Assembly (NCBI GenBank): GCA_000025185.1
Contig: CP001848.1
Coordinates: 4,410,001-4,442,000, forward strand
DNA length: 32,000 nucleotides
Origin: Pirellula staleyi DSM 6068
Lineage (GTDB): Bacteria; Planctomycetota; Planctomycetia; Pirellulales; Pirellulaceae
Direction: 5' to 3'
The notes below the pieces were generated by a model that worked only from the letters and a program-made list of their open reading frames with translations, was not told where the DNA came from and ran no database searches. This document shows positions 11,719 through 32,000 of this stretch, piece after piece. Position 1 is the first letter of the stretch; each line of letters starts with the position of its first letter. Both the position numbers and the translations under genes were made by a program.

Positions 11719-11726
11719 GGGGATAG

Positions 11727-13280: not shown

Positions 13281-13363
13281 CGGACATCTCCTGAAATATG
13301 AAAAAGTTTGTTGGGAATGCGCATCCACTACGCAGCGGACGCGCTGTAGCAACACAAGTTCCC

Positions 13364-15286: not shown

Positions 15287-15651
15287 GCTGCACCTCCCAC
15301 ATGGATGGTCAGTTTGATCTCGCCGCTGGGAAGTGTTTGCTCGGTGACGGAATGTCCGCGTTTACGAGCCTCGATCTTCGCTTTTTCAGCAGCGTAGGCT
15401 TGCAGAAACTTGTCGAGTTCAGCTTGCTCCCCCCAGCGCCCGCCATAGTTGTCAAAATCAACCCGCCCACTGCTGACATCAACGACAGCCGGATATTTCC
15501 AGCCTGGTAGCTGAACGATCAGTCCTGTTTTCGTCGTAGTAAATAGCTTCGCTGTGCCCTGCGTCGGTGCCGGAATTCTGATCCGCCGACAGGCAGCATC
15601 CACAGCCACTGGATCACGAACTTGCGTTTGAATCTGAACAATGTGTGACAT
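15283..15651 (-). CDS. DUF1257 (Ycf35-like) protein (122 aa)
   Basis: MSHIVQIQTQVRD...LPGWKYPAVVD...DNYGGRWGEQAELDKFLQAYA matches the remembered DUF1257 pattern (MSHFS.I.T.I.D ... GW.YP ... Y.G.WG). AGGAGG 8 nt upstream of the ATG. Confidence 0.72.
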   Translation of the reverse strand: MSHIVQIQTQVRDPVAVDAACRRIRIPAPTQGTAKLFTTTKTGLIVQLPGWKYPAVVDVSSGRVDFDNYGGRWGEQAELDKFLQAYAAEKAKIEARKRGHSVTEQTLPSGEIKLTIHVGGAA

Positions 15652-17649: not shown

Positions 17650-18360
17650 TGATTGCCCTCGGTTGTGTTGGATACCGAAAGGCCTCAGTCAGCGCATAAA
17701 AACAGGGAGCGCCGAACCAAGGCCGCTCGCTCCACCCCCGCCAAGGGGCGATCAGAACAGCGCAAGGCCGACGCCCCCCTTTCGGGAGGCGTTCGGTCCG
17801 AGCACTGCATCTGATCTCAAGGGCCCGAAGACCCAGGTTGGCGGTTTTGGAGCGATGCAAATGTGGACGCGTAACGCGTCGTTCAAATTGTCGGTAAGTC
17901 GCCTGCTGGCGACGGAAAAATCTCCTTGGACGGTCATGGCGCAACAGCACGAAAGCGCCACTGCGGCCCCTCAGTATAGCAAGCCGTATTCGGAATGCTC
18001 GTCCTCTGCAAAAAGTACTCTGGCGATTCGCTTGCTCGGCAAAAAACAGTCGCCACGAGCGAATTGCACCTTCGGACTGGCAGTCCGCGATAAGGTCCAA
18101 AGATTGCTTCTCAGGTCAGGTTGTCGCCGAGTCCGACATGCCTTTGGCGCGCACGGCCAAGGGCAGAGTGTTCAAGCGATCGCCATGACATGTGACATGA
18201 GTACGATCGGCCTTCGAAAAAAGATGTCCAGAATGCGTTATGCACTCTCCTTTTGTCAAACTTGAATGGAAACGAGTGATGAACATCGAAACTCAGTTAC
18301 TCGATAACGAGTAAACCATGTGCGAGCCTATAACTGGCAATCTTCACGGAGACCAATGTC

Positions 18361-18627
18361 ATGCCGCCGAAACTCAGCGAATCAAACGAGCACATGGCGA
18401 AATACATTGCGATGGTGATACGCAATGCGATGGAAGATTTCCATTGCGAGCACCTGACCGATGAACAGATGAAGCATCTCAATCCGCTCATTCGCAACGC
18501 CATCGCAACAGCACTTCATGCGTTCGACCACTATGAGCGGTCAGGAGCAGCCCACGAATTTGTGGACTATCACTTCCGGTCGATCCCAAGTTATTGGGAG
18601 CAGCCCGAGATGCTGGAAGGCTATTAG
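18361..18627 (+). CDS. Hypothetical protein (88 aa)
   Basis: Isolated ORF with protein-like composition (MPPKLSESNEHMAKYIAMVIRNAMEDFHCEHLTDEQMKHL...). No motif recognised and no clear RBS. Confidence 0.45.
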   Translation: MPPKLSESNEHMAKYIAMVIRNAMEDFHCEHLTDEQMKHLNPLIRNAIATALHAFDHYERSGAAHEFVDYHFRSIPSYWEQPEMLEGY

Positions 18628-19399
18628 AAGATGTGGCTGCGTCGTGGCGAGACGAGTTAGAGCCCGCCGAATGACCCTGCGAGATGCCATAGGCGTCGTC
18701 ACATCCCACCTACTACTGAACCTCTTGAGCTCGCTGCAAAAGAGTTTTCTCCGAAATAGAATACTCAGAGAGTCTTGCTGTTGGCTATCGAAGTCGATCT
18801 ATTTGCGGTGTTGAAGTTGCAGGTCAGCTGATAGCCGCCGTTCCACAACTGAGCCAGTTAACTGCTCAGGCTCGCCCCAAACCGATCCCAACAAATTAAG
18901 CCGTCTCCGTAGCTATGCTACGAGCCTCACCTTAGTATGACGCGGTTTTGGCTCGAATTCAGCCCGCTCCAAGTGCTGCAATCGCTGTAACTGCTGTAAT
19001 TGGCAACGGACTTGTTTTTACTATCTAGTGAACTTGCGGCCGATTGCCCGTGACTATATCGACCTGATAAGGATTGAGTTATTTTCAAGACATGGTCGCA
19101 ACTTTCTAGTCGCGATTGTTTTCGTCAGTGTGGAGTTCGTTCTGGTTAGGGAATCAGAAAAAGTGTTCGGTGATTGCCCGAATTATCCTTCAGGCATGCG
19201 GCTAATGGAAGAGATTCGTGGAACCACCACAATCCTGTGAACTCGTACCGTAGGTTCCAACGAAACGACATGACGACATTGAACCGCTAACTCAAAACTG
19301 AAAATGCAAGACTAGATCGTAGCGGGATCAACTTTGCCAGACGAGGATCAACAAATTCCTGGCCAAAAGTAAAATCTGAAATTAGAGACAAGTGCTGGA

Positions 19400-22300
19400 A
19401 TGGACGTTTTCAAGTTGCGAGAAGATGTGATTCACGACTACGCAGAGTACGTGCGTAGTTTTGTTCGCATTCGTGAGCCACGCCTTCGGCGCTTTGTTGA
19501 CGATAGCCTGACGGACCAAGCGCTTTGGCCGCAGCCGCTGATCCAGATGAATCCCAGCTTTGAATCAGGTGGGTGGATTGACGAACTGGTCGATGCGGGT
19601 GTTCTGCACCAGAAGTCCAAAGATGTCTTTCGAGTTAAGACGGAATCTGACCCGCGTGGGATACCAATGCGACTCCACCGACACCAGGTGGACGCCATCC
19701 GAGAGGCGCAGGCACGCCGCAATTACGTTCTGACCACTGGGACCGGCTCTGGTAAGAGCCTCGCTTACATTATTCCCATCGTCGATCAAGTTCTCCGAAA
19801 CGGTCGCGGCAAGGGTATCCAGGCCATTGTCGTGTATCCGATGAACGCTTTGTGTAACAGCCAGTACGGGGAACTCGAAAAGTTTTTGCGGCTGGGATTC
19901 GGAGAGGGGTCAGAACCCGTCCGCTTCGAGCGTTACACCGGCCAGGAAACACGCGAGAAGCGCGAGGAGATCACTCGAAATCCTCCGGACATCCTGTTGA
20001 CCAATTACGTCATGTTGGAATTGCTGCTAACTCGCCCATTCGAACAAGCACTCGTCAGTTCCGCACGCAATCTCAGCTTTCTCGTCCTCGATGAACTACA
20101 TACCTATCGGGGGCGACAGGGAGCGGATGTCGCATTGCTTGTCCGTCGCGTTCGTGAAGCCTGCCACGCAACATCGCTTCTCTGTGTGGGCACTTCGGCC
20201 ACAATGGCAAGTGGCGGGACTATCAACGAGCAGCGTCTTGAAATTGCCTCGGTCGCTTCGCGATTGTTCGGAACTGAGGTTCTACCCAACTCGATCATCG
20301 GCGAGACCCTGACCCGTGAGACCATCGAGTTGGATTTCAGCGATCCGCAGGTCGTCTCTCGCTTGCAGCTCGATGTTACCCAAAAGGACGGCTTCCCAAC
20401 GAACTACGATGAGTTCATACGGAAACCAATCGCAAGCTGGCTGGAAGACTGCCTCGGCCTGACTCGCGAGAACGGCACGAATCGACTCGTTCGTGCCCGT
20501 CCGCAATCAATTCAGGGGCCAAGTGGTGCCGCCAAACAGCTATCCGATTTGGTGGGAATGACTGTCAAGGATTGCGAAGACGCCATCGAACGCTGGCTGC
20601 TGGCGGGGTGCAATTGTCATCCTCACCCCGAGACCAAACGGCAGCCTTTTGCTTTTCGGCTCCATCAGTTCATCAGTCGCGGCGACGCGGTGTTTGCATC
20701 GTTGGAGGAGAATGACCACCGGCATTTATCGCTCAGCGGACAACAATTCGTACCGAACAGCGATCGTAAGAAAATCCTGCTTCCATTGGCTTTCTGCCGA
20801 GAGTGTGGCGCGGAATACTATTCCGTCTGGAAATCGAATGATGTCGGAACTGGCCGAGTTCATTTCCGGCCCCGTGACCTGAATGACCGGGTCGAAGATC
20901 CCGCCGAAGGCGAGGCGGGCTTTCTCTATCGTGATCCAGAAAAGCCTTGGCTAGACGATCCTGATGAGATTGTACAGCAGCTGCCGGATGATTGGCTGGA
21001 GGAGCATCGCGGTCGGCAACGTGTTCGCAGCAACCTCCGTGATGACGTTCCGCAACCCATAGTGATTGGCCCCGATGGAACCGTCGACGCACAGGGATTG
21101 ATCTATTCTTACACGAGCACGCCGTTTCGCTTTTGTCAAAACTGCGGTGTCTCTTACCGCGTTCGAACTGGAGCTTCTGATTACGGACAACTGGCCACGC
21201 TCGCGAGCGGGGGACGTAGCACTGCCACGACTATCCTCAGCTTGTCGAGTGTCCGCCTGCTGCGGAACGAGCCAACGCTTCAGAACTTTGCACGAAAGCT
21301 CCTCAGTTTCACAGACAATCGGCAGGACGCTTCGCTTCAGGCTGGGCACTTCAACGATTTCGTGGAAGTCAGCTTGCTGAGGTCGGCGCTCTACAAGGCC
21401 GTTGCGGCGGCGGGCGAAGCTGGGATTTCGCACGATGAACTAACGCAACGCGTCTACAAGGCACTGAACCTGCCGTTCGAACTCTTTGCCCGCGAGCCAG
21501 GCGTCCAGTTTGCCCAGCGAGCCGATACGGAACGAGCCTTCCGAAATGTTCTTGGGTATCGCCTCTATCGAGACCAGAAACGCGGATGGCGAGTTACATC
21601 TCCGAATCTCGAACAGTGTGGGTTGCTGCGAATCGAATATCCGTCGTTGATGGAACTTTGCAGGGCAGGAGAGTTCTGGCGTGGAACTCACGCTGCTCTG
21701 ACAACTGCCACTCCGCAAACCCGCGAGCGTATCGCGAAAGCCCTGCTGGACTACCTACGTCGCGAGCTGGCGATTGATGTCGATTATCTGACCACGGAAT
21801 TCTTTGAACGGTTGCAACAGCAAAGTTCGCAGCGACTCCGTGAACCGTGGGCCATCGACGAGCAGGAACGCCCAGAAGTGGCTGCGGCCGTATTCCCACG
21901 TGGCCGGCGCCCCCATGATCGTCAGTTCTACACATATGTGTCGGGGAGGAGCGGATTCGGGATTTTTCTCGGTCGACCAAGTACCCTTCCAGAATTTGAT
22001 CGCTCACAGGGAAAACTGAAGCTCACCGATAAAGATTCAATCATTCAGGATCTGTTCCGGGTACTTGCCAACGCGGGCTACATCGTCCAGATCGTTGAAC
22101 CCACTGATGACGACCTTCCGGGTTACCAGCTCTCCGCATCGGCCATGAATTGGGTCGTTGCCGATGGGACAGTCGCATTTCATGATCCGATCCGTGTTCC
22201 CAATCCTCCGCAGGATGGTGGCCAGACCAACGATTTCTTCGTCAATTTTTACAAGACCGTGGCCAACGATCTCCGTGGACTGGAGGCTCGGGAGCATACG

Positions 22301-24937
22301 GCACAGGTTCCTTATGAAGAACGCGAACGGCGGGAGCAGGACTTTGGATCTGCGAAACTCCCCGTCCTGTATTGCTCACCAACAATGGAACTGGGCGTCG
22401 ACATTCGCCAATTGAATGTCGTCAACATGCGAAATGTCCCACCCACGCCCGCGAACTACGCGCAACGCAGCGGTCGGGCGGGCCGAAGTGGACAACCGGC
22501 CTTCGTCCTGACCTATTGCACGTCAGGTAGCTCTCACGATCAGTATTTCTTCCGTCAGCCCGAGCGGATGGTGGCCGGGGCCGTTAGTCCTCCTCGACTG
22601 GACTTGGCAAACGAAGACCTGGTCAGGGCACACGTTCATGCGATCTGGCTGGCAGAGACCGGTGAATGGCTGGGAAACTCGCTGACGGATCTGTTGGACG
22701 TCGAAGGAGCAAATCCCTCGCTGACGATGCTGCCGAGCAAGGTCGCTGGACTGTCGAAGAAGACCGCCATCGAATCTGCCCGAGCGAAGGCGGAAGCCGT
22801 TCTGCGAACCATTTCTGAAGAACTAGGGACCTCCCCTTGGTTTACCAGCGAGTGGCTGAAGCAGACACTCGATCACTCCCTGCATGCTTTCGAAGATGCC
22901 TGCCAGCGGTGGCGAAGCCTGTTCCGGGCGGCGAAAGATCAGTTCGAACGGCAAAACGTCATCATCGGTGACGTGGCGATGCGATCTCAGTGGGATGAGG
23001 CCCGACGCCTGCGGCGCGAGGCCGAAGCTCAGATCGAATTGCTGACGGATTCGCAGAGCGTGATTCAGTCCGACTTTTACAGCTACCGGTATTTCGCCAG
23101 TGAGGGCTTCCTGCCGGGATATAACTTCCCTCGTTTGCCGCTCTCCGCGTACATCCCTGCACGCCGCAAGACCAAAGGTCAGGACGAATTTCTGTCCCGC
23201 CCGCGTTTCCTCGCCATTTCGGAATTCGGCCCTCGGAGCATCATTTACCACGAAGGCTCTCGCTACATCGTCAACAAAGTGATTCTCCCCATCGCCGATG
23301 GCGATGTGCCCCTCACGGGCTCCGCCAAGCAGTGTGAAGACTGCGGATACATGCGCGAGTTGAATTGGGGTGAAGCCGGGCCGGATCGCTGCGAGAACTG
23401 CCACAGTTACCGTCTCGCCAGAATCGATTCACTGCTTCGCCTCCAGAACGTCGCGACGAAGAGGCGCGATCGAATCAATTCCGATGAAGAAGAGCGACTC
23501 CGGATGGGGTACGAATTGCGAACCGGCCTGCGTTTCAAGGAGGTGGGCGGACTCGCGTATTACCAGGTTGCAGAAGTGAGCGGCTCGTCCTCGTCGATTT
23601 GCACTCTCACTTACGGGGACGCTGCGACGATTTGGCGAATCAACCTGGGTTGGCGACGGCGAGCCAACCGGGATCAGCATGGATTCGTTCTGGATGTCGA
23701 GAAAGGATACTGGCAACGGTCGGATCAACTTCCAGACGATGAAGATCCCGCCGATCCGTTGGGAGCACGAACTCAGCGTGTCGTTCCTTACGTGGAAGAT
23801 CGTCGCAACTGCCTGATTCTCGAACCGGCGACACAAGTCTCAGCCGACGAGATGGCGTCATTGCAAGCCGCCCTGAAGAAGGCCATCCAGACGATCTACC
23901 AACTGGAAGACAATGAACTGGCAACCGAACCCCTTCCGTCGGTCAACGACCGGAAACGGATTCTGTTCTTCGAGTCTGCTGAAGGTGGCGCTGGCGTCTT
24001 GCGTCGAATCCTGGAAAGCGGTGATTCCTTGGCACTGATTGCGGAAGAAGCTCTCCGCCTTTGCCATTTTGACCCCACAACCGGAAATGACCTGCGACGC
24101 GCATCCGGAGCGACGGAAGACTGCGAAGCCGCGTGCTACGACTGCCTCATGAGCTACTCCAATCAACGGGATCATGAACTCCTGGATCGCAAGAAAATCC
24201 GCGGCTTCCTGCTCGACATGACAAAAAGCCGCGTCAAAGCCTCTCCGGGAATCAAAGCATTCAGCGCTCACCTGGAGACGTTGAAGTCGCAGTGCGATAG
24301 CCATCTGGAAAAGTCGTGGCTGGATTACCTGGTGGCTCGTGATTTACGTCTTCCGTCCTGCGCGCAGAAGTTCTACGACCAGTGTGCGACCCGACCCGAC
24401 TTTGTTTATGAGAAGCATCACACGGTGATCTATGTCGATGGACCACCCCACGACTTTTCGGATCGGCAACAGCGTGATCGGGAGAAGACAGCCGCAATGG
24501 AAGACCTTGGTCTGACCGTCTTGCGGTTTCATCACGAGGCTCAGTGGGATGAGATTCTCGCTGCCCACCCGCACATCTTCGGAGTTATACGCGAAGCCAC
24601 GTCTTCTCCTGAACCGGCTGCTGCGTTGACCGGTGATTTATTGGACCTCGAACTGTTCCCCGGCGATTGGCATCCCATCGTCCAAGAGCTTTCTGGTCGT
24701 GACGGCTTGATGATTGAACCCGGTGGTGATGTCGCCACGGGCGGACGGGTCTTGGGGGCTTACGTTCTCGACATCGCGAAAAATGATCAGCGATTGTGGG
24801 TGATCGATGGTCGCGAACAAGCGGGCAACACGCTCTTAGAGGCAATTGCAGCGCAGGGTTATGCAGCACTGTCGATTGATCCTACCGAGTCGTCGGCAAT
24901 GGAGAAGATTCTTTCGAAGCTCGGAGGTCTCGGATGA
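19400..24937 (+). CDS. Giant DExH helicase - DUF1998 (Zn-ribbon) - DUF559/Vsr-like endonuclease fusion (1845 aa); DrmA/DrmB- or DruE-like
   Basis: Motif I TTGTGSGKS (19733-19759), Ia VVYPMNAL, II DELH (20089-20100), III GTSAT, SFTDNRQDAS, VI QRSGRAGRSG (~22461-22490). Cys pairs CEDCGY..CENCH (~23332-23406) and CEAACYDCLMSY (~24121-24160) are typical of DUF1998. PDFVYEKHHTVIYVDGPPHDF...LTVLRFHH (~24390-24537) is typical of DUF559 PD-(D/E)xK nucleases. Confidence 0.9.
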   Translation: MDVFKLREDVIHDYAEYVRSFVRIREPRLRRFVDDSLTDQALWPQPLIQMNPSFESGGWIDELVDAGVLHQKSKDVFRVKTESDPRGIPMRLHRHQVDAIREAQARRNYVLTTGTGSGKSLAYIIPIVDQVLRNGRGKGIQAIVVYPMNALCNSQYGELEKFLRLGFGEGSEPVRFERYTGQETREKREEITRNPPDILLTNYVMLELLLTRPFEQALVSSARNLSFLVLDELHTYRGRQGADVALLVRRVREACHATSLLCVGTSATMASGGTINEQRLEIASVASRLFGTEVLPNSIIGETLTRETIELDFSDPQVVSRLQLDVTQKDGFPTNYDEFIRKPIASWLEDCLGLTRENGTNRLVRARPQSIQGPSGAAKQLSDLVGMTVKDCEDAIERWLLAGCNCHPHPETKRQPFAFRLHQFISRGDAVFASLEENDHRHLSLSGQQFVPNSDRKKILLPLAFCRECGAEYYSVWKSNDVGTGRVHFRPRDLNDRVEDPAEGEAGFLYRDPEKPWLDDPDEIVQQLPDDWLEEHRGRQRVRSNLRDDVPQPIVIGPDGTVDAQGLIYSYTSTPFRFCQNCGVSYRVRTGASDYGQLATLASGGRSTATTILSLSSVRLLRNEPTLQNFARKLLSFTDNRQDASLQAGHFNDFVEVSLLRSALYKAVAAAGEAGISHDELTQRVYKALNLPFELFAREPGVQFAQRADTERAFRNVLGYRLYRDQKRGWRVTSPNLEQCGLLRIEYPSLMELCRAGEFWRGTHAALTTATPQTRERIAKALLDYLRRELAIDVDYLTTEFFERLQQQSSQRLREPWAIDEQERPEVAAAVFPRGRRPHDRQFYTYVSGRSGFGIFLGRPSTLPEFDRSQGKLKLTDKDSIIQDLFRVLANAGYIVQIVEPTDDDLPGYQLSASAMNWVVADGTVAFHDPIRVPNPPQDGGQTNDFFVNFYKTVANDLRGLEAREHTAQVPYEERERREQDFGSAKLPVLYCSPTMELGVDIRQLNVVNMRNVPPTPANYAQRSGRAGRSGQPAFVLTYCTSGSSHDQYFFRQPERMVAGAVSPPRLDLANEDLVRAHVHAIWLAETGEWLGNSLTDLLDVEGANPSLTMLPSKVAGLSKKTAIESARAKAEAVLRTISEELGTSPWFTSEWLKQTLDHSLHAFEDACQRWRSLFRAAKDQFERQNVIIGDVAMRSQWDEARRLRREAEAQIELLTDSQSVIQSDFYSYRYFASEGFLPGYNFPRLPLSAYIPARRKTKGQDEFLSRPRFLAISEFGPRSIIYHEGSRYIVNKVILPIADGDVPLTGSAKQCEDCGYMRELNWGEAGPDRCENCHSYRLARIDSLLRLQNVATKRRDRINSDEEERLRMGYELRTGLRFKEVGGLAYYQVAEVSGSSSSICTLTYGDAATIWRINLGWRRRANRDQHGFVLDVEKGYWQRSDQLPDDEDPADPLGARTQRVVPYVEDRRNCLILEPATQVSADEMASLQAALKKAIQTIYQLEDNELATEPLPSVNDRKRILFFESAEGGAGVLRRILESGDSLALIAEEALRLCHFDPTTGNDLRRASGATEDCEAACYDCLMSYSNQRDHELLDRKKIRGFLLDMTKSRVKASPGIKAFSAHLETLKSQCDSHLEKSWLDYLVARDLRLPSCAQKFYDQCATRPDFVYEKHHTVIYVDGPPHDFSDRQQRDREKTAAMEDLGLTVLRFHHEAQWDEILAAHPHIFGVIREATSSPEPAAALTGDLLDLELFPGDWHPIVQELSGRDGLMIEPGGDVATGGRVLGAYVLDIAKNDQRLWVIDGREQAGNTLLEAIAAQGYAALSIDPTESSAMEKILSKLGGLG

Positions 24938-27024
24938 TCGCCGTGAGCATCGCAAAGACCTTCTCGGCTTCCACAAAGAAGTTGAGCACTCCTGACCGTG
25001 GCCGTGTCCTCGACTTTCTGACGAAGTTCATGGATGACCCGAGCAGCCCAGGACTAAATTTCGAGACGATTCAAGGTGCCAAAGATGGCAACATGAAGTC
25101 GGCTCGAATTACGCAAGACCTGCGCACGATACTTCATCAAAGCAATGGGATGTTGACGCTCCTGTATGCGGGCCACCACGAAGATGCGTACCGCTGGGCC
25201 GAGCGTCGCAGGATGGAGAATCATCCTGTCACCGGAACGCTCCAAATCGTTGAAACTGCCGAGGCGGCGCAGAATGAGGTGAATGTCGCGGACCTGACGT
25301 CCAATTCCACCAGGACTTTCAATGGTTACGACGATGACTACTTGCTGAGCCTTGGCGTCCCCACGGATTGGCTCACCATCATCCGACAGATTCAAAACGA
25401 CGACCAGTTGCTGGCAGTTTGTCAGAAACTTCCCGAGGAAGTTGCCGAAAGGCTGGTAACGCTCTCGACGGGTGAACTGGTCACGCCACCGCCCCCAGTC
25501 CCGGCCACCGCACCTGTTGAACAGAGTCCAGACAACCTGCGACGGTTCTGGGTCGTCCAGGATGCAGCCGATCTGGCCAGCGTACTGGATCGTCCGATCG
25601 AGGACTGGGTTCGTTTTCTGCATCCGTCTCAACGCTTGCTGGTGACCCAGGAATTCAATGGACCTGCCAAAGTCTCTGGTGCTGCCGGTACGGGTAAGAC
25701 CGTCGTCGGAATGCACCGAGCCCGCAGACTGGCTTCGCAAGGCAAACGCGTGCTGCTCACCTCGTTTGTGACGACGCTTTGCCGGAACATCGAACGGAAC
25801 ATCCACATCCTCTGCGCCGGCACTCAAAACGCGTTTGACGGGTCGACGGAGAGCCGAATCACGGTCAGTACCGTCCATAAGCAGGCACTAGCCCTCGCGA
25901 AGGCGACCCATCCGAAGCTCAGGCCATTGGAATCCGACAAGATCGAAGCTCTGGTCAATCGGCATCACAGTCATGGGGGATACCTGTTCGACTCAGGATT
26001 TCTCGTTACTGAGTGGAATGCCGTGGTCGAACCGCAGGGCATCACGACCTGGGAGGAGTATCGGGATGCCGTTCGCACCGGTCGCGGAAAACCGTTGACG
26101 ATCAAACAGCGCAAGGAGTGCTGGAAGGTATTTGCACGCATTTGGGAAGACCTCATGGCCGCCCATGCGTATCCGTGGTCAGCGATTTGTCGCATCGCGC
26201 GCGAAGCCGTGGAATCGGGAGCCGTGGAAAGCCCGTTTGACGCGGTGATTGTCGATGAGGTTCAGGACCTTCAACCGCAGGAGCTTCGGTTCCTGAAAGC
26301 TCTCTCCGCGAAGAATCCGGGTGACTTCATGCTGCTGGGAGACGCCGGACAACGCATCTATCCGGGGGGATTCAGCCTGAAGAAGCTCGGAATCGATGTT
26401 CGCGGACGGTCCCACATCCTGCGAATCAATTACCGCACCACGGAGCAAATCCGCCGATTTGCCGATGGCTTGCTGGCCACCACGTCCAATGACTTCGATG
26501 ACGGTGCGGAAGACCGGCGATCTCAGAGTCTGCTGAATGGCCCCAGACCCACGATCAGAGAGTTTCCCAACGAAGCCGAGCAAGCCAAGTTCGTGCTTGA
26601 TCAGGTTCGCTTGTTGCTCGAACAGGGAATGTCGCCGCGAGAAATCGCTGTTTTCGCCCGGTCGAGCAGTCGGTTGCAATCCATCCGTGACATCCTGACG
26701 GATGCGAAGATGGAGATTGCCCCGCTGAACGACGAAGAAGATTTGTCAGAAGTCAGGGGCATCAACCTCGGCACGATGCACCGGGCCAAGGGGCTGGAGT
26801 TCAAAGTCGTCTTCGTCATCGACTGTAACCAGGGGGTCGTCCCACATGCCTTCACCTTGTCCAAGATGCGGGATCAAGGGGACTACGACGCCGCGTACGA
26901 GCGGGAAAGACAACTTCTGTACGTCGCGATTACGCGTGCGCGTGATGAAGTGTTTGTCACGTCCGTCGGCAAGCCATCTGAGTTCCTGACGAGCCAACCC
27001 GGAAACACGAGAGGCCAACAATGA
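24934..27024 (+). CDS. UvrD/PcrA-like SF1 helicase with an N-terminal RelE/ParE-like module (696 aa)
   Basis: Walker A GAAGTGKT (25678-25701), VIVDEVQDL, INYRTTEQI, GTMHRAKGLEFKVVFV, LLYVAITRARDEVFV. N-terminal ~95 aa ...KSARITQDLRTILHQSNGMLTLLYAGHHEDAYRWA fits the RelE/ParE C-terminal pattern. ATGA overlaps at both ends (24934, 27021). Confidence 0.88.
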   Translation: MIAVSIAKTFSASTKKLSTPDRGRVLDFLTKFMDDPSSPGLNFETIQGAKDGNMKSARITQDLRTILHQSNGMLTLLYAGHHEDAYRWAERRRMENHPVTGTLQIVETAEAAQNEVNVADLTSNSTRTFNGYDDDYLLSLGVPTDWLTIIRQIQNDDQLLAVCQKLPEEVAERLVTLSTGELVTPPPPVPATAPVEQSPDNLRRFWVVQDAADLASVLDRPIEDWVRFLHPSQRLLVTQEFNGPAKVSGAAGTGKTVVGMHRARRLASQGKRVLLTSFVTTLCRNIERNIHILCAGTQNAFDGSTESRITVSTVHKQALALAKATHPKLRPLESDKIEALVNRHHSHGGYLFDSGFLVTEWNAVVEPQGITTWEEYRDAVRTGRGKPLTIKQRKECWKVFARIWEDLMAAHAYPWSAICRIAREAVESGAVESPFDAVIVDEVQDLQPQELRFLKALSAKNPGDFMLLGDAGQRIYPGGFSLKKLGIDVRGRSHILRINYRTTEQIRRFADGLLATTSNDFDDGAEDRRSQSLLNGPRPTIREFPNEAEQAKFVLDQVRLLLEQGMSPREIAVFARSSSRLQSIRDILTDAKMEIAPLNDEEDLSEVRGINLGTMHRAKGLEFKVVFVIDCNQGVVPHAFTLSKMRDQGDYDAAYERERQLLYVAITRARDEVFVTSVGKPSEFLTSQPGNTRGQQ

Positions 27025-29870
27025 GTTTTTCCGTCGGGACATTGGTGAAGGCTCGCGGACGCGAATGGGTCGTCCTGCCCGAGTCACAGGATGATTTTCT
27101 GGTCGTTCGCCCACTCGGGGGAACCGATGCGGAAGTCGCCGGGATCGATACCTATTTGGAGTCGGTCGACCCGGCGAGCTTCGACCTTCCCGACCCGACA
27201 CGGCTGGGTGATTTTCAATCGTGTCGCATGCTGCGGAATGCGATCCGCTTCGGATTCCGTTCCAGTGCCGGGCCGTTTCGATCATTCGGCAAGATTGCCG
27301 TCGAACCGAGACCCTATCAACTCGTGCCACTCTTAATGGCACTGAAGCTCGATCCCGTGCGGCTCCTGATCGCTGACGACGTCGGTATCGGGAAAACCGT
27401 CGAGGCATTGTTGATTGCTCGGGAACTGCTGGATCGGGCCGAGGTCCAGCGAATGTCCGTGTTGTGTCCACCCCACCTCGCAGAACAGTGGCAGGACGAA
27501 CTCCGCGACAAGTTTCACATCGAGGCCGAACTCGTCCTCTCCAGCACGGCGAAACGCCTCGATCGGGTCTGCGGCAACCGATCCGTCTTCGATGTGTTTC
27601 CCTACACGATTGTTTCTCTCGACTACATCAAGAGTGAATCGCGCCGTAACGATTTCATCCGTGCCTGTCCTGAACTGGTGATCGTTGATGAGGCACATAC
27701 CTGTACGTCATCCGCCCAACCAGGGCGGGGTGGCACACGGCAGCAGCGCCACGAGGTCGTGAGGGAGCTTTCCAAGAGTCCGAATCGACACATGCTCCTC
27801 GTCACGGCGACACCCCACTCAGGCAATGAAGAGGGCTTCCGCTCACTGTTGGGGTTACTCAACCCCGAATTCGCGGACCTTCCCACAGACCTCTCTGGTG
27901 ACGAGAACCGCCGACAACGCGAACGCCTCGCCCAGTATTTCGTGCAGCGCCGTCGCGGTGACATCAGGCACTACCTGGAATCGGACACTTCGTTTCCTGA
28001 TCGCCTGGAGCAAGAGCAGACCTACAAACTCGGCACGTCCGAGTACCGTAAGCTGTTCGATCGCCTGTTGAGCTACGCTCGCGAAGTCGTGCAGGAATCG
28101 GAGGGAATGTCCCGCGTACGGCAACGTGTTCGCTGGTGGGCGGCGCTGGCGTTGTTACGGGCACTGGCCAGCAGCCCGGCAGCTGCCGCTGCGACACTGC
28201 GGAGCAAGCTCCAGGCCATCGCGGCGGAATCGCCGGATGAAGTCGATGACATCAGTCGCCCTCTCGTCTTCGACGATGACGCCGAAGACTCCGCAGATGC
28301 CCCGGACATCACGGCGGGTGCGGACCTGGCTGACCTCGAAGAGAACGAATCGGACGCTGCCAAAGAGCGGAAGCGCTTGCTCGACATGGCGCGTGCGGCA
28401 GACAAGCTCGAAGGCGACGGCGACCCCAAACTCGTTCAGATGGTGCCGATCGTCAAAAGGCTCGTCTCCGAGGGCCACCGACCGATCCTGTTCTGTCGTT
28501 TCATCGCCACAGCCGAATACCTCGCCGAGCAGCTACGCCAGCGACTTCCGAAAGGGGTCACGGTGATCGCTGTCACCGGGCAGATCCCACCCTCGGAGCG
28601 TGAGGCCCGCATTCAAGAGATGCGGAATCACGAACAGTACGTCCTGGTCTGTACCGATTGCCTGTCCGAAGGGATCAACCTCCAGCATCTGTTCGACTCG
28701 GTCATCCATTACGACCTGAGCTGGAACCCCACGCGACACGAACAGCGAGAGGGACGTGTCGATCGCTTCGGCCAGCCCAAGCCCGAAGTCAAAGTGCTGA
28801 CCTACTATGGCACCGACAACCAGATCGACGGCGTCGTTCTGGAAGTCCTCATTCGCAAGCACAAGGCGATTCGCAAAGCCCTGGGCGTTTCGGTCCCCGT
28901 GCCGACAACCAGCAATGCTGTGCTGGAGGCGTTGTACGAGGGGTTGCTGCTGCGGCGCAAAGATACTCAGCAGCAGATGTTTCAGTTCCCGGATGATGAC
29001 GAACTGAAGCCGATGACCAATGAGTTCAACGCCGAATGGCAGAACGCGGCGGACCGAGAGAAGAAGAGCCGCTCACTGTTCGCTCAGCACACAATCAAGC
29101 CCGACGAAGTCGCCCACGAAGTGGCCGAGATTCAGTCTGCGATTGGTTCGGCTGCGGATGTCGACGCCTTTGTCACATCGAGCGTCAAGGCGTTTCGAGG
29201 GGTGATCACCCGCCAAGGGGGCCGATGCGACATCGACCTGACAGAAGCTCCCCGCGCCGTGCGGGAATCGATCCGCTCCACACCGAAGTTTGCCGGACGC
29301 TTCCAGCTTCCGGTCTCCAACGATGAGCTGTATCTCTCGCGAACGCACCCTGTGATCGAGGGGCTTGCGACTTACGTGATGGATTCGGCGCTGGATGCCA
29401 CTTCGGTCAGCGACGGACCGGTTCCGGCAGCCCGATGCGGTGTCATTCGGACCAAGGCTGTCAGCACCCGCACGACGTTACTGCTGCTCCGGCTGCGGTA
29501 TCACATCATCACCACGCGCGGTGATGAGTCGACTCCCTTGCTCGCGGAAGACACACTGATCGTCGGCTTTCGAAGTGCCCCCTCCGCTGCGGAATGGTTG
29601 TCGCCCGCTGAGGCGGAATCCCTGCTTCTGGCCACTCCCGATGACAACGTCACCGACGATGTGGCTCGCAACTTCGTTCAGAAGGTGATTGATGAGTTCA
29701 GCCACTTGAGGTCTCATCTCGATGAAGTCGCCGAGGCACACGGGAAGGAACTGCTCGACGCTCACCAGCGTGTGCGGACCGCCTCCCGCCGTGTCGGAGT
29801 GAAATACAGCATCGAGCCACAACTGCCGCCGGACGTTCTGGGGCTGTACGTGTATCTGCCGGTGATGTAA
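27021..29870 (+). CDS. SNF2-family helicase (DrmD-like), 949 aa
   Basis: PRPYQLVPLLMAL, LIADDVGIGKTVEA (27375-27398), VIVDEAHT (27679-27700), LLVTATPHSG, VLVCTDCLSEGINLQ, HYDLSWNPTRHEQREGRVDRFGQ. Confidence 0.9.
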   Translation: MSFSVGTLVKARGREWVVLPESQDDFLVVRPLGGTDAEVAGIDTYLESVDPASFDLPDPTRLGDFQSCRMLRNAIRFGFRSSAGPFRSFGKIAVEPRPYQLVPLLMALKLDPVRLLIADDVGIGKTVEALLIARELLDRAEVQRMSVLCPPHLAEQWQDELRDKFHIEAELVLSSTAKRLDRVCGNRSVFDVFPYTIVSLDYIKSESRRNDFIRACPELVIVDEAHTCTSSAQPGRGGTRQQRHEVVRELSKSPNRHMLLVTATPHSGNEEGFRSLLGLLNPEFADLPTDLSGDENRRQRERLAQYFVQRRRGDIRHYLESDTSFPDRLEQEQTYKLGTSEYRKLFDRLLSYAREVVQESEGMSRVRQRVRWWAALALLRALASSPAAAAATLRSKLQAIAAESPDEVDDISRPLVFDDDAEDSADAPDITAGADLADLEENESDAAKERKRLLDMARAADKLEGDGDPKLVQMVPIVKRLVSEGHRPILFCRFIATAEYLAEQLRQRLPKGVTVIAVTGQIPPSEREARIQEMRNHEQYVLVCTDCLSEGINLQHLFDSVIHYDLSWNPTRHEQREGRVDRFGQPKPEVKVLTYYGTDNQIDGVVLEVLIRKHKAIRKALGVSVPVPTTSNAVLEALYEGLLLRRKDTQQQMFQFPDDDELKPMTNEFNAEWQNAADREKKSRSLFAQHTIKPDEVAHEVAEIQSAIGSAADVDAFVTSSVKAFRGVITRQGGRCDIDLTEAPRAVRESIRSTPKFAGRFQLPVSNDELYLSRTHPVIEGLATYVMDSALDATSVSDGPVPAARCGVIRTKAVSTRTTLLLLRLRYHIITTRGDESTPLLAEDTLIVGFRSAPSAAEWLSPAEAESLLLATPDDNVTDDVARNFVQKVIDEFSHLRSHLDEVAEAHGKELLDAHQRVRTASRRVGVKYSIEPQLPPDVLGLYVYLPVM

Positions 29871-29959
29871 CGGCTCGCTTCACCCTCTGTCAGGGAGACA
29901 GGGTGAGGTCAGAGGAAACCAGTACGGAGACGCGTTGATGTTCGACCAGAAAGACGCTC

Positions 29960-32000
29960 GTGCGAACTCGTACCCGCAATCCATTCACGACGGTCTCCAC
30001 GGCTGGGCTGCTGCTCCCGGTCGATCTGCTCGCGCGCATTGTCGACGGCGATCCCAACCTGCCGGGCCTCACCCCCAAGGATTACCACCTGCGCTCTGGC
30101 GAACGGCTCAATGAAGCGGCCAGCCGGGCCTGGAATGAATGCCTGGCCGCCTGGAAGTCGTTTCGCAAGAAGTTCGCCTCTCTTCCAGCCTCGGATACCG
30201 GCACCACGCTCACCCGCGATGAATGGCTGTTGCCGCTGTTTCAGGAACTCGGCTACGGGCGTCTGCAACCCAAGCGAGCCATCGTCATCGATGGCAAGGA
30301 ATACCCGATCAGCCACGGTTGGGAAGATCACGTCCCTATCCACCTGCTGTCAGCTCGCTATTCCATCGACCGCCGCACGCCGGGGGCCGCCGGGGCGGCC
30401 ACCCGTGCCCCGTACAGCCTGCTTCAGGAGCTGCTCAACAGCAGCGGCCAGCATCGCTGGGGATTTGTCACCAACGGTCTCAAGCTCTACCTGCTGCACG
30501 ACAACGCCGCCCTCGCGCGGGCCGCGAATGTCGAATTCGACCTCGAAGCGATGATGGACGGCGAACTCTACGCCGACTTCATGCTGCTGTTCCTGCTCTG
30601 CCATCAATCCCGCGTCGAGATTCAGCCCACGCCGATTGCCAAAGTCACCCTGGATCGGAAGACCGGCAAGGCCAAGAAGGCGAAAGCCACGAGTCAGAAG
30701 AAGCTGGTCACCGATGACGATGCCGAAGCCGGTGAAGGCGACGACTCCGTCGACGCGGAAGCAGAAAAGACCCGGCTTGGTCCGGAGAACTGCTGGCTGG
30801 AGCGCTGGGCCAATCAGGCTGATCAGCAAGGGACCCGCGCCCGCGACAAACTACGAGATGGCGTCGAAGCGGCGATCAAGTCCCTCGGAGCCGGTTTCCT
30901 GACCACCAAGGGGAATCAGGCACTTCGCGAGCGGATGCGGACGGGCGAACTGTCGACCCAGGACTATTACCGCCAGCTTCTCCGCGTCGTCTATCGGCTG
31001 CTGATGCTGCTCGTCGCCGAGGAAAAGAAGACCGAGAACGGGGCCAACCTCTTTCATCCCCCCGGCACTCCGCCCGAGGTCACCGACCGTTACGCCCGCT
31101 TCTACTCGGTCAGCCGCATTCGCACGCTGGCCTACGAGCGGCGCGGCACCGCTCACACTGATCTGTATGAATCGCTCAAGGTCCTGTTCCTCAAGCTGCG
31201 CGAGGGGTACGCCCCGCTGGGCATTCCCGGCATGGGTTCGTTTCTCTTCTCGGACGACTCCACGCCCGATCTGGACGACGCCTTCCTCGCCAATCAGGAC
31301 TTGCTCGATGCCTTCCGGAATCTCTGTTACACGGAAGACACATCCGGGCGCGGCGGCAGCATTCGCCGTCCGGTCGACTTCGGCAGCCTCGGCAGCGATG
31401 AACTCGGCAGCGTGTACGAATCGCTGCTCGAACTGCATCCCAAGATCGACACCGATGAGGGGCCGTTCACGCTCGGCACGGCGTCCGGTAACGAACGCAA
31501 AACGACCGGTAGCTACTACACCCCGACCTCGCTCATCAACTGCCTGCTCGACTCGGCCCTCGATCCGGTCGTTCACGCCGCCATCGATGTTCCTGATCGT
31601 GCCGAGGCCGAACGCAAGCTGCTCAATCTGAAAGTCTGCGATCCGGCGTGCGGCAGCGGACACTTTCTGATCGCAGCCGCTGAGCGAATGGCGATGCACC
31701 TGGCTAGGCTGCGGACCGGCGATGACGAGCCGAACACGCTCGATGTCCAGCACGCCAAACGCGACATCATCGGCCGCTGCATCTACGGCGTCGACATCAA
31801 CCCGATGGCCGTTGAGCTGTGTAAGGTCGCCCTCTGGATGGAAGCGATGGAGCCGGGGAAGCCGTTCTCGTACCTCGAACATCACATCCAGTGCGGCAAC
31901 AGCCTGCTCGGAACCACACCCGCGCTGCTCGCCAAGGGAATCCCCGACGATGCGTTCACGGCGATTGAAGGAGATGTGAAGTCCCGCGTCAGCGAACTGA
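29960..32000 (+). CDS. Eco57I/DrmMI-type N6-adenine DNA methyltransferase, 5' part (continues beyond the window)
   Basis: Open frame (positions = 2 mod 3) from the in-frame stop at 29936-29938 to the window end. Not in the ORF track because it has no stop. First start-type codon is GTG 29960 (MRTRTRNPFTTVSTAGLLLPVDLLARIV...). Motifs GSYYTPTSLINCLLD (~31508), motif I VCDPACGSGHFL (31637-31666), IYGVDINPMAVELCKVALWME, HIQCGNSLLG. Confidence 0.85.
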   Translation, partial: MRTRTRNPFTTVSTAGLLLPVDLLARIVDGDPNLPGLTPKDYHLRSGERLNEAASRAWNECLAAWKSFRKKFASLPASDTGTTLTRDEWLLPLFQELGYGRLQPKRAIVIDGKEYPISHGWEDHVPIHLLSARYSIDRRTPGAAGAATRAPYSLLQELLNSSGQHRWGFVTNGLKLYLLHDNAALARAANVEFDLEAMMDGELYADFMLLFLLCHQSRVEIQPTPIAKVTLDRKTGKAKKAKATSQKKLVTDDDAEAGEGDDSVDAEAEKTRLGPENCWLERWANQADQQGTRARDKLRDGVEAAIKSLGAGFLTTKGNQALRERMRTGELSTQDYYRQLLRVVYRLLMLLVAEEKKTENGANLFHPPGTPPEVTDRYARFYSVSRIRTLAYERRGTAHTDLYESLKVLFLKLREGYAPLGIPGMGSFLFSDDSTPDLDDAFLANQDLLDAFRNLCYTEDTSGRGGSIRRPVDFGSLGSDELGSVYESLLELHPKIDTDEGPFTLGTASGNERKTTGSYYTPTSLINCLLDSALDPVVHAAIDVPDRAEAERKLLNLKVCDPACGSGHFLIAAAERMAMHLARLRTGDDEPNTLDVQHAKRDIIGRCIYGVDINPMAVELCKVALWMEAMEPGKPFSYLEHHIQCGNSLLGTTPALLAKGIPDDAFTAIEGDVKSRVSEL

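What the first reader, a model, noticed from the sequence alone, without database searches (positions are those of the whole stretch)
19400..32000. Coupled helicase / helicase / helicase / methyltransferase operon: DISARM- or Druantia-like parts in a non-canonical arrangement
Seen in the sequence:
- Four plus-strand genes. The first three are joined by ATGA stop/start overlaps (24934-24937, 27021-27024). The fourth starts 90 nt later.
- The parts are a DExH helicase + DUF1998 + DUF559-type nuclease in one 1845-aa chain, a UvrD-like SF1 helicase, an SNF2 helicase, and an Eco57I-type N6A methyltransferase.
Established knowledge:
- Class 1 DISARM is defined by DrmD (SNF2), DrmMI (N6A MTase), DrmA (helicase), DrmB (DUF1998) and DrmC (PLD nuclease).
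- Druantia is defined by DruE, a very large helicase+DUF1998 protein.
Inference:
- The helicase and DUF1998 functions are fused here.
- No PLD gene is seen in the window, and a Vsr/DUF559-type PD-(D/E)xK domain occupies the nuclease slot.
- An extra SF1 helicase sits between them.
- This could be an undescribed DISARM variant with a DrmA-B-nuclease single chain. Alternatively it is a new two-gene system (giant helicase + UvrD-like) nested upstream of a canonical DISARM whose drmA/B/C lie past 32 kb.
Basis: partly seen in the sequence, partly recalled or inferred. Interest (0 to 1): 0.82.

Follow-up and report, generated by a model that had tools for sequence, protein, structure and literature searches.

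The report
ARMADA anti-phage operon, four-gene subtype
This is a real four-gene bacterial anti-virus operon of the recently described ARMADA family (a relative of DISARM and Druantia), in a gene order and composition that the published descriptions do not spell out, so it is a modest variant and not a new kind of system.

Summary
The locus is DISARM/Druantia-related with a fused helicase-DUF1998-Vsr nuclease chain, but that kind was described in 2025 as ARMADA (PMC12458937) and tested in E. coli (also PMC13463889).

The giant helicase is ArmC of the Type I lineage: it is 54-55% identical to the ArmC encoded on contigs the paper lists as Type I. The SNF2 is ArmA and the methyltransferase is ArmB. 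The 'extra' UvrD-like gene is a full-length ArmD homologue (33% identity, E=3e-110 to E. coli ArmD) with the diagnostic RelE-fold N-terminus. ArmD is described only for Type II.

In a 95%-identical Planctopirus hydrillae locus, no drmA/B/C lies past 32 kb. What follows is the rest of ArmB, an LmuB-like ATPase, a reverse transcriptase and an IS. That refutes the 'canonical DISARM downstream' alternative.

The new part is the arrangement armC-armD-armA-armB. It recurs in about 14 loci across several phyla. It always comes with an extra ~95-aa ArmC C-terminal domain of unassigned fold, and ArmD co-diverges with ArmC (r=0.93).

Verdict: a known kind in an under-described four-gene subtype. Interest 0.33.

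The parts
19348..19375 (+). Promoter-like site (TCAACA-16-TAAAAT) about 25 nt upstream of armC
   Evidence: It is the only sigma-70-like match in 17600-32000. This is weak evidence: planctomycete promoters are not covered by the scan, and the sequence is not shared with L001, where homology starts at 19398.
19400..24937 (+). armC: 1845-aa YprA-like DExH helicase with OB-CON-DUF1998(MZB), a Vsr-type nuclease and an extra C-terminal domain
   Evidence: Pfam finds DEAD, Helicase_C, MZB and DUF559. The best PADLOC hit is DruE3 at 1.6e-101, partial only. No NCBIfam model reaches its cutoff. It is 50-78% identical to the ArmC of syntenic loci. Four of those contigs are listed as 'ARMADA Type I helicase' in PMC12458937 S1, as is the L. 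cremea genome. DELH is at 231-234 and CxxC pairs are at 466, 579, 1312, 1331 and 1579.
24260..24589 (+). Vsr/DUF559 PD-(D/E)xK nuclease domain of ArmC (about aa 1621-1730), predicted active
   Evidence: DUF559 scores 1.9e-07 on the isolated C-terminus. D1667, D1680, H1684, D1693 and R1709 are invariant in alignment A2. The core RPDF..YxDGPPHD..RD..VxRF is conserved in loci with and without ArmD. The model has pLDDT above 90. Its fold hits are weak and include Vsr-like 3r3p, R2 RLE and FAN1.
24647..24934 (+). ArmC C-terminal extension (aa ~1750-1845): a compact alpha/beta domain present only where armD follows
   Evidence: It is present in every ArmD+ locus with a complete armC (ArmC 1833-1860 aa) and absent in ArmD- loci, whose intact ArmC are mostly 1721-1775 aa and none of which aligns to it. 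The conserved motif is EPGxDVxxxGRVVGxY. It is predicted confidently (pLDDT 91-97) after a disordered linker. No sequence or fold match was found: HMM and hhalign against the E. coli ArmC tail and against its own Vsr domain, Foldseek PDB, PDB profile search.
24934..27024 (+). [quoted passage not shown]
   Evidence: It is 33% identical to E. coli Sakai ArmD over the full length (4-687 vs 8-703), E=3e-110. Pfam finds UvrD-helicase and UvrD_C. PADLOC GajB hits reach only about 1e-28. More than 120 homologue clusters at 48% identity or above were listed, several named by JGI as 'SF1 helicase / RelE endonuclease'. Walker A is at 249-256 and DEVQ at 441-444.
24934..25221 (+). RelE/YafQ/YoeB-fold domain of ArmD (aa 1-96)
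   Evidence: The AlphaFold model (mean pLDDT 79, 80-92 over this part) gives Foldseek PDB top hits RelE 2khe (E=1e-4, TM 0.73), YafQ, and RelE3 3bpq (TM 0.74). R58, R64, H82 and Y86 are invariant in 36 homologues. Pfam alone finds nothing here.
27021..29870 (+). armA: 949-aa SNF2 (BrxHII/RapA-like) helicase
   Evidence: Pfam finds SNF2-rel_dom and Helicase_C. NCBIfam DrmD scores 329 bits against a cutoff of 610, and DpdE 188 against 500. The PADLOC model named 'DpdE' (PDLC02853) matches end to end at 872 bits. It is 28% identical to E. coli ArmA, E=4e-44. The scan found 516 relatives; the 80 kept are 55-99% identical across phyla.
29960..32000 (+). armB (5' 680 codons of about 1553): PglX/DrmMI-like N6-adenine methyltransferase, cut by the window end
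   Evidence: Pfam finds N6_Mtase, MmeI_Mtase and Eco57I. PADLOC DrmMI scores 1.3e-48. It is 97.8% identical to the first 680 aa of L001's 1553-aa protein, which carries NPPW at 840. It is 26% identical to E. coli ArmB.

Best explanation
[quoted passage not shown] Its order is armC (YprA-like helicase fused to DUF1998 and an active Vsr nuclease), armD (UvrD/GajB-like helicase with a RelE-like N-terminus), armA (SNF2 translocase) and armB (PglX-like N6-adenine methyltransferase). It contains the four components of the tested E. coli Type II system. The order is a circular permutation of Type II (armA-armB-armC-armD), and the armC-armD junction with its 4-nt overlap is the same in both.

Likely mechanism, inferred from ARMADA II genetics and from DISARM and Druantia biochemistry:
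- ArmB marks or senses host DNA.
- ArmA and ArmC load on invading DNA or its ssDNA-containing intermediates and translocate on ATP.
- The ArmC Vsr domain cuts the DNA.
- ArmD is a required accessory motor, probably tethered through the extra ArmC C-terminal domain.
- Protection is direct, not abortive.

Shown here: the identity, homology and domain content of the genes, intact catalytic motifs, and conserved synteny. Inferred: every functional step. The confidence given is for the identification as an ARMADA operon with ArmD as a component; the individual mechanistic steps are much less certain.
For: - Domains and motifs are confirmed.
- Synteny of ArmC, ArmA and ArmB holds in nearly all of 80 loci from many phyla at 50-84% identity.
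- Four of those contigs (AP024096.1, JACRBH010000148.1, BPJO01000005.1, JACPWG010000193.1) are listed as 'ARMADA Type I helicase' in PMC12458937 Table S1.
- Lignipirellula cremea CP036433.1 is also listed as Type I, and its locus has the same four-gene order as the window, with an ArmD 80% identical to the window's.
- ArmD matches E. coli ArmD over the full length (E=3e-110) and has a RelE fold at its N-terminus, as published for ArmD.
- The Vsr core residues are invariant, matching the published 'predicted active Vsr'.
- The same four-gene order with 4-nt overlaps occurs in distant metagenomic loci.
- ArmD distances track ArmC and ArmA distances (r=0.93 and 0.91).
- ARMADA II gave non-abortive defence in which all four genes and their ATPase and NPPW motifs were required (confirmed in EDL933).
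- The window is a defence island, with McrBC-like, Cas4-like and IetA-like genes upstream.
Against: - Only Type II has been tested experimentally. No Type I system, and nothing from Planctomycetota, has been tested.
- ArmC, ArmA and ArmB are only 23-35% identical to the tested E. coli proteins.
- No protein reaches a curated NCBIfam cutoff, and no ARMADA HMMs were available to me.
- The Type I assignment rests on identity to listed members and an NJ tree, not on placement in the authors' tree.
- Methylation as a self-mark has not been shown for any ARMADA system.
- The proposed docking role of the C-terminal domain is pure inference. Its co-occurrence with armD could simply reflect that the two are physically contiguous and are lost or gained in one event.
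Confidence: 0.85

Rival explanations
1. Two adjacent systems: a giant-helicase/UvrD pair, followed by the start of a canonical class 1 DISARM (drmD-drmMI) whose drmA/B/C lie beyond 32 kb.
For: The SNF2 and MTase give their best named hits to DrmD (PADLOC 3e-89, NCBIfam 329 bits) and DrmMI (1.3e-48).
Against: In L001, which is 95% identical from 19398 onward, ArmB is followed by an LmuB-like ATPase, a UG5-type RT and an IS transposase. There is no DrmA, DrmB or PLD. The DrmD score is below the curated cutoff of 610. The genes are translationally coupled across the supposed boundary by the ATGA overlap at 27021. ArmC directly precedes the SNF2 in about 60 loci that lack the UvrD gene. In the ArmD-bearing loci that reach far enough, the pair was always followed by SNF2 and then the MTase.
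Confidence: 0.02
2. A three-gene ARMADA Type I operon into which an unrelated stand-alone UvrD/GajB-like defence gene has inserted. On this reading the helicase is a passenger, not a component.
For: Most relatives (about 60 of 75 loci) lack the gene and appear complete. ArmD+ loci are not monophyletic in NJ trees. PADLOC gives GajB and NERD+UvrD hits.
Against: It is homologous over its full length to ArmD, a genetically essential ARMADA II component, including the RelE-fold domain. It has 4-nt overlaps on both sides. Its position immediately after armC is the same as in Type II. It always co-occurs with an added ArmC domain. Its divergence parallels that of ArmC and ArmA (r=0.93 and 0.91), which is not expected for repeated capture from an outside pool.
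Confidence: 0.07
3. A Druantia variant: the 1845-aa protein is DruE and the other genes are novel Druantia partners.
For: The best PADLOC hits of protein 1 are DruE3 and DruE1 models (1.6e-101 and 9e-92). It is about as similar to E. coli DruE (107 bits) as to E. coli ArmC (112 bits).
Against: The DruE hits cover only parts of the protein, at about 340 bits for 1845 aa. No DruH homologue was found by tblastn and no DruA-D, DruM, DruF or DruG model hit among the ORFs scanned (a weak DruK hit on the Cas4-like ORF). The nuclease is Vsr-type, whereas Druantia III has PLD-type domains. The partner genes are exactly the ARMADA set. The paper itself places ARMADA as the sister group of Druantia.
Confidence: 0.03
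4. A housekeeping DNA-repair or restriction-modification-like locus and not anti-phage immunity, since YprA/MrfA helicases also act in repair.
For: The YprA family has a large repair branch. NCBI annotates ArmD homologues as '3'-5' exonuclease' or 'DNA helicase UvrD'.
Against: The locus sits in a defence island. Its distribution is patchy and looks horizontal, spanning many phyla at 55-60% identity. It behaves as a cassette, with flanks unrelated between two Planctopirus genomes. Homologous Type II systems protect against phages.
Confidence: 0.03

Closest known systems
ARMADA Type I (PMC12458937, Bell et al. 2025 preprint)
   Same: ArmC, ArmA and ArmB belong to this sequence family, at 50-84% identity to loci on contigs listed as Type I. 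armC comes first and armA-armB follow. ArmC ends in a predicted active Vsr nuclease.
   Different: The text describes Type I as three genes. Here an armD gene sits between armC and armA, and ArmC carries an extra ~95-aa C-terminal domain of unassigned fold. No Type I system has been tested experimentally.
ARMADA Type II (E. coli NCTC 12900, EDL933, Sakai ECs_5261-5264; PMC12458937, PMC13463889)
   Same: It has the same four component types. ArmD is a full-length homologue (33% identity, E=3e-110) with a RelE-like N-terminus. armD immediately follows armC with a 4-nt overlap. ArmC has additional material after the first Vsr domain.
   Different: The gene order is armA-armB-armC-armD and is described as strict; here it is armC-armD-armA-armB. 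ArmC, ArmA and ArmB are only 23-35% identical, in patches. Type II ArmC is 2113 aa with EEP-like and second Vsr-like domains, and I could not relate the window's extension to either of them. Type II is reported to be absent from archaea and commonest in Actinomycetota and Pseudomonadota (as is Type I), and in E. coli it travels with Druantia III and Zorya II. None of those partners is present here.
DISARM class 1 (DrmD, DrmMI, DrmA, DrmB, DrmC)
   Same: It also combines an SNF2 helicase, a large N6A methyltransferase and a YprA-type helicase with DUF1998, and it presumably targets DNA directly.
   Different: Here the helicase and DUF1998 are one chain, not DrmA plus DrmB. There is a Vsr nuclease and no PLD (DrmC). 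The SNF2 scores below the DrmD curated cutoff. An additional UvrD-like helicase is present.
Druantia (DruE)
   Same: Both have a giant YprA-like helicase with DUF1998, and protein 1 gives its best PADLOC hits to DruE models.
   Different: No DruH homologue and no DruA-D, DruM, DruF or DruG match was found. The nuclease type differs. The partners are an SNF2 and a methyltransferase.
Gabija GajB
   Same: ArmD's motor is a UvrD-like SF1 helicase that is similar to GajB.
   Different: There is no GajA. ArmD has a RelE-fold N-terminus. Its similarity to GajB models (about 1e-28) is far weaker than to ArmD (3e-110).

Membership tests
ARMADA (general) | A YprA-like helicase (DExH core plus OB-CON-DUF1998) as the central protein | tested here: met
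   Pfam finds DEAD 94-270, Helicase_C 947-1031 and MZB/DUF1998 1488-1583. DELH is at 231-234.
ARMADA (general) | ArmC falls in the ARMADA clade of the YprA tree | tested here: met
   This is indirect. It is 53-55% identical to the ArmC on contigs AP024096.1, JACRBH010000148.1, BPJO01000005.1 and JACPWG010000193.1, all listed as 'ARMADA Type I helicase' in Table S1. It clusters at 97-100% NJ bootstrap with the L. cremea locus, whose genome is also listed as Type I. It was not placed in the authors' own tree.
ARMADA (general) | A C-terminal Vsr-type PD-(D/E)xK nuclease on ArmC, predicted active | tested here: met
   DUF559 hits at 8e-06 and 1.9e-07. D1667, D1680, H1684, D1693 and R1709 are invariant. 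Activity itself was not tested.
ARMADA (general) | An adjacent BrxHII/RapA-like SNF2 helicase (ArmA) and PglX-like N6A methyltransferase (ArmB) | tested here: met
   ArmB is complete only in L001 (1553 aa, NPPW at 840).
ARMADA (general) | BrxA-like, zinc beta-barrel and MarR-like insertions in ArmC | tested here: inconclusive
   CxxC pairs at 466, 579, 1312, 1331 and 1579 are compatible with zinc-binding modules.
ARMADA (general) | Anti-phage activity | not testable with these tools
   It has been shown only for E. coli Type II.
ARMADA Type I (as described in the text) | A three-gene operon: armC, armA, armB | tested here: not met
   A fourth gene (armD) lies between armC and armA.
ARMADA Type II | [quoted passage not shown] | tested here: met
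   Full-length match to E. coli ArmD and RelE/YafQ/YoeB fold hits.
ARMADA Type II | Strict gene order armA-armB-armC-armD | tested here: not met
   The order is armC-armD-armA-armB.
ARMADA Type II | ArmC belongs to the Type II subclade | tested here: not met
   It is only 23-35% identical to E. coli ArmC, in patches (112 bits), against 50-78% to Type I-listed relatives.
DISARM class 1 | Separate DrmA (helicase) and DrmB (DUF1998) genes | tested here: not met
   The two are fused in one 1845-aa chain. DrmA models hit only at 6e-15, partially.
DISARM class 1 | DrmC PLD nuclease | tested here: not met
   No PLD was found in the ORFs scanned in the window, or in the 10 kb downstream in L001.
DISARM class 1 | DrmD SNF2 helicase at equivalog level | tested here: not met
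   NCBIfam NF038317 scores 329 bits against a cutoff of 610.
Druantia | DruE together with type-specific partners (DruA-D, DruM/F/G or DruH) | tested here: not met
   The DruE model hits are partial. tblastn finds no DruH homologue, and no other Dru partner models hit among the ORFs scanned, apart from a weak DruK hit on the Cas4-like ORF.
Dpd (7-deazaguanine modification/restriction) | DpdE at equivalog level plus the dpdA/B/C modification genes | tested here: not met
   The PADLOC model labelled DpdE (PDLC02853) matches ArmA end to end. But NCBIfam DpdE scores 188 against a cutoff of 500, DpdJ scores 78 against 800, and no DpdA, DpdB or DpdC model hit among the ORFs scanned.

The most novel reading that the evidence does not exclude
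The four-gene form armC-armD-armA-armB may be the ancestral state of ARMADA. On this reading ArmD is an original component that co-evolved with ArmC. The common three-gene Type I arose repeatedly through single deletions that removed armD together with the ArmC C-terminal domain, and Type II is a permuted descendant. The ~95-aa ArmC C-terminal domain would then be a previously unrecognised ArmD-docking module. Natural pairs of loci with and without ArmD would give a ready-made test of what ArmD contributes.
Probability: 0.35. Interest if true: 0.45.

Novelty: new variant of a known kind. Interest (0 to 1): 0.33.

Why it matters
ARMADA was defined only in 2025 and its mechanism is unknown. The role of ArmD, an essential helicase with a RelE-like domain, is the least understood part.

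This locus shows that ArmD is not confined to the proteobacterial Type II systems. It also occurs in the much more widespread Type I lineage: Planctomycetota, Cyanobacteriota, Thermoanaerobaculia and others. There it always follows armC and always comes with an added ArmC domain.

That blurs the published Type I / Type II distinction and suggests ArmC and ArmD work as a physical pair. It also provides closely related natural operons with and without ArmD for comparison, for example the window or L001 against L005 or L009.

There is a practical point too. Older tools mislabel the parts: PADLOC v2 calls ArmA 'DpdE' and ArmC 'DruE', and NCBI names ArmD '3'-5' exonuclease'. Such loci will therefore keep looking novel to annotators.

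Tried and rejected
- Exact-protein look-up of the SNF2 gave nothing on record.
- Megablast of the operon against E. coli genomes and plasmids found no match.
- I tried to identify the ArmC C-terminal extension in four ways. An HMM search against the six E. coli Sakai proteins, ArmC included, found nothing. hhalign against the E. coli ArmC tail and against its own Vsr domain gave probabilities below 1%. Foldseek PDB on the two-domain model gave a best E of 0.03, with hits attributable to the Vsr part. A profile search of PDB sequences gave only noise from Rossmann-like segments. By eye the extension resembles the E. coli ArmC terminal segment (…GEIIAEADLAWPSQKWALIID…), but I could not substantiate this and do not claim it.
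- Pfam on ArmD residues 1-230 gave no hit, so the RelE assignment needed the structure model.
- I considered Dpd membership because of the 872-bit PADLOC 'DpdE' hit. I rejected it because the NCBIfam DpdE and DpdJ scores are far below cutoff and there are no dpdA/B/C genes.
- I considered Hma (helicase-methylase-ATPase) because an LmuB-like ATPase follows ArmB in L001. I rejected it as the primary label because the HmaA hit (1e-60) is weaker than the DrmD and ArmA-family hits, and the ATPase is present in only about 12 loci.
- The Rfam, tRNA and repeat scans of the window found nothing relevant.

Full report
**1. Observation**

The window has three large plus-strand ORFs at 19400-24937 (1845 aa), 24934-27024 (696 aa) and 27021-29870 (949 aa). 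The ATGA stop/start overlaps are at exactly 24934-24937 and 27021-27024. A fourth ORF starts with GTG at 29960 and is open for 680 codons to the window end.

- Protein 1: DEAD, Helicase_C, MZB (DUF1998) and DUF559.
- Protein 2: UvrD-helicase and UvrD_C.
- Protein 3: SNF2-rel_dom and Helicase_C.
- Protein 4: N6_Mtase, MmeI_Mtase and Eco57I.

The helicase and methyltransferase motifs are intact.

**2. What lies beyond the window**

A scan of one genome per species with the SNF2 protein found 516 relatives. The best, L001 (Planctopirus hydrillae JC280), is 95.2% identical in DNA to the window from 19398 to 32000. L001 therefore shows what follows.

The methyltransferase is 1553 aa, with NPPW at residue 840. 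It is followed by a 660-aa LmuB-like SMC-type ATPase whose start overlaps the methyltransferase's end, then a 532-aa UG5-type reverse transcriptase, then an IS4/5 transposase. There is no DrmA, DrmB or PLD gene.

**3. The conserved unit**

tblastn of the window proteins against all 80 loci shows giant helicase, SNF2 and large methyltransferase as a syntenic trio in nearly every locus where the contig allows. Identity is 50-84%. The loci come from Planctomycetota, Chloroflexota, Cyanobacteriota, Firmicutes, Desulfobacterota, Actinomycetota, Acidobacteriota, CPR and others.

The UvrD-like gene is intact in ten of these loci and truncated or fragmentary in two more. In the nine of the ten that have a complete armC, the giant helicase is 1835-1860 aa. 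In the ArmD-lacking loci the intact ArmC ORFs are mostly 1721-1775 aa, and none aligns to the window's last ~100 residues.

**4. Identification**

PADLOC v2 gives partial DruE hits for protein 1, an end-to-end 872-bit hit of a model labelled 'DpdE' for protein 3, and DrmMI for protein 4. NCBIfam places none of the proteins above a curated cutoff: DrmD scores 329 against 610, and DpdE 188 against 500.

The literature resolves this. Bell et al. (PMC12458937, September 2025) define ARMADA, a DISARM-related array.
- Type I is a YprA-like helicase first, then a BrxHII-like SNF2, then a PglX-like methyltransferase.
- In both types ArmC ends in a predicted active Vsr nuclease.

E. coli Type II protects against phages non-abortively and needs all four genes. 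This was confirmed in EHEC EDL933 (PMC13463889).

Four of my loci are on the very contigs that the paper's Table S1 lists as 'ARMADA Type I helicase': L079 AP024096.1, L017 JACRBH010000148.1, L024 BPJO01000005.1 and L040 JACPWG010000193.1.

**5. The 'extra' helicase is ArmD**

I fetched the E. coli Sakai armABCD locus (L082). The window's UvrD-like protein aligns to E. coli ArmD over its whole length (residues 4-687 against 8-703) at 33% identity, E=3e-110. ArmC, ArmA and ArmB match their Type II counterparts only in patches, at 23-35% identity and 112-163 bits.

An AlphaFold model of ArmD residues 1-240 (pLDDT 79) gives RelE, YafQ and YoeB as its top PDB fold matches, with target-normalised TM-scores of 0.66-0.74. 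These include 3bpq, the entry the paper cites for ArmD. R58, R64, H82 and Y86 are invariant in 36 homologues.

The armC-armD junction is a 4-nt overlap both in E. coli and here. The window operon is therefore a circular permutation of the Type II operon, built from Type I-lineage proteins.

**6. How general the arrangement is**

ArmD homologues at 48% identity or above over the full length fill all 120 listed hits. Three that I looked up sit in ArmC(1833-1847 aa)-ArmD-ArmA-ArmB operons with the same overlaps: a Thermoanaerobaculia contig, another metagenome contig, and the complete genome of Lignipirellula cremea.

L. cremea CP036433.1 is itself listed in Table S1 as carrying an ARMADA Type I helicase. 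The authors' Type I set therefore already contains an ArmD-bearing locus, although their text describes Type I as three genes and ArmD as a Type II feature.

**7. Evolutionary pattern**

I built a bootstrapped NJ tree of ArmC(1-1735) plus ArmA. The planctomycete clade has 100% support. The ArmD+ locus L006 branches first, with 92% support for the remainder. Two ArmD- pairs (L007/L008 and L005/L009) interleave with the ArmD+ core clade.

Elsewhere, ArmD+ loci are scattered in an unresolved radiation. Among ArmD+ loci, ArmD distances correlate with ArmC and ArmA distances (r=0.93 and 0.91). This favours long co-inheritance with repeated loss over repeated capture.

Parsimony within the planctomycete clade alone cannot decide between two losses and two gains. 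The armC 3' extension and armD are contiguous, so a single indel can remove or add both.

**8. The extra ArmC domain**

The alignment shows that the Vsr core is shared by all loci. D1667, D1680, H1684, D1693 and R1709 are invariant. ArmD+ loci add a variable linker and a conserved ~95-aa domain with the motif EPGxDVxxxGRVVGxY.

The domain is predicted with pLDDT 91-97, in the order helix, five strands, helix, strand, helix. I could not assign its fold or relate it to the extra C-terminal domains of Type II ArmC. A role in docking ArmD is an inference from co-occurrence only.

**9. Mechanism**

What is shown here is homology, domain content, intact motifs, coupling and synteny. By analogy with ARMADA II genetics and with DISARM and Druantia, I infer the following.
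- ArmB methylates or senses DNA.
- ArmA and ArmC are ATP-driven translocases that engage invading DNA or its ssDNA intermediates.
- The ArmC Vsr domain cleaves the DNA.
- ArmD is a required accessory motor, and its RelE-like domain may sense or cleave RNA.
- The outcome is direct, non-abortive clearance of the invader.

None of these steps has been demonstrated for any Type I system. Methylation as a self-mark is not established for ARMADA at all.

**10. Context**

The window is a defence island. It holds an EVE-McrB/McrC-like pair, a Cas4-like nuclease, and an IetA-like AAA ATPase with a DnaJ-trypsin protease.

Homology with L001 begins 2 nt before the armC start codon, and everything upstream is unrelated. 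The operon thus behaves as a movable cassette. No tRNA, Rfam family or notable repeat was found.

**11. Verdict**

But it belongs to a family that is now described and experimentally validated. Its distinctive feature is an ArmD-containing, Type I-lineage, armC-armD-armA-armB operon with an added ArmC domain. That is a recurrent subtype the literature has catalogued without describing.

Novelty: a new variant of a known kind, bordering on a new member. Interest: 0.33.

Noticed in passing
window 19398 (boundary); L001:2378: DNA homology between the window and the P. hydrillae locus (95.2%) starts 2 nt before the armC ATG. Everything upstream is unrelated: L001 has a Dam methylase and an IS there, while the window has a DnaJ-trypsin protease and 1.7 kb without sizeable ORFs. 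The operon therefore has no shared promoter region in the two genomes.
   Followed up: partly
L001:17567-21166 (beyond the window end); also L086:19810-21768: A 660-aa LmuB-like SMC-type ATPase starts inside the end of armB, and in L001 and L006 a UG5-type reverse transcriptase lacking the nitrilase part follows it. An LmuB-like gene follows armB in about 12 loci, both with and without armD. In L. cremea a 652-aa protein in the same position, not itself compared with LmuB, is followed by a DUF6361 protein. This may be an accessory module of ARMADA Type I, and the ARMADA paper does not mention it.
   Followed up: partly
window 13364-15001 (-) and 15283-15651 (-): An AAA ATPase (weak IetA-like hits) and a 122-aa protein with no family recur divergently upstream of ARMADA in L. 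cremea (L086, 65% and 61% identity, with a DUF2997 gene between them) and in Bremerella (L003, 63% and 59%). This could be a co-travelling system. In the window a DnaJ-trypsin-like protease (15991-17649, -) lies between them and armC.
   Followed up: partly
window 2926-6767 (+): A McrBC-like pair. The first protein is 845 aa, with an N-terminal region matching PADLOC PD-T4-1 and PDC-S02, an EVE (modified-base reader) domain and an AAA_5 motor. It is followed, with a 4-nt overlap, by a 435-aa McrC. This is probably a modification-dependent restriction system.
   Followed up: partly
window 8289-13355 (-): A Cas4-like PD-(D/E)xK nuclease (8289-9113) heads a run of four co-directional ORFs (151, 552, 314 and 212 aa) that have no Pfam or PADLOC match. 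The content of this part of the defence island is uncharacterised.
   Followed up: no
window 27021-29870 and 24934-27024 (annotation): There are annotation traps here. The PADLOC v2 model PDLC02853, labelled 'DpdE', matches ArmA end to end (872 bits), although the curated NCBIfam DpdE score is far below its cutoff. NCBI names ArmD homologues '3'-5' exonuclease'. No NCBIfam model reaches its cutoff for any of the four proteins.
   Followed up: yes
L014:7750-9720: A single 656-aa ORF joins the first ~283 residues of ArmC to the last ~395 residues of ArmD, upstream of an intact ArmA. It looks like a decayed four-gene locus produced by an internal deletion.
   Followed up: no
L083:1-2484 and 18915-22061: The Thermoanaerobaculia ARMADA locus is flanked upstream by a gene whose product hits both SNF2 and, faintly, N6_Mtase. 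Downstream it is flanked by an AAA ATPase and a Peptidase_S8 pair, which looks IetAS-like. This is another dense defence island.
   Followed up: no
L070:2419-4701: In an Acidimicrobiales locus, a 760-aa UvrD-like gene only 29% identical to the window's ArmD lies upstream of armC instead of downstream. It is unclear whether it is a divergent ArmD in a third position or an unrelated helicase.
   Followed up: no
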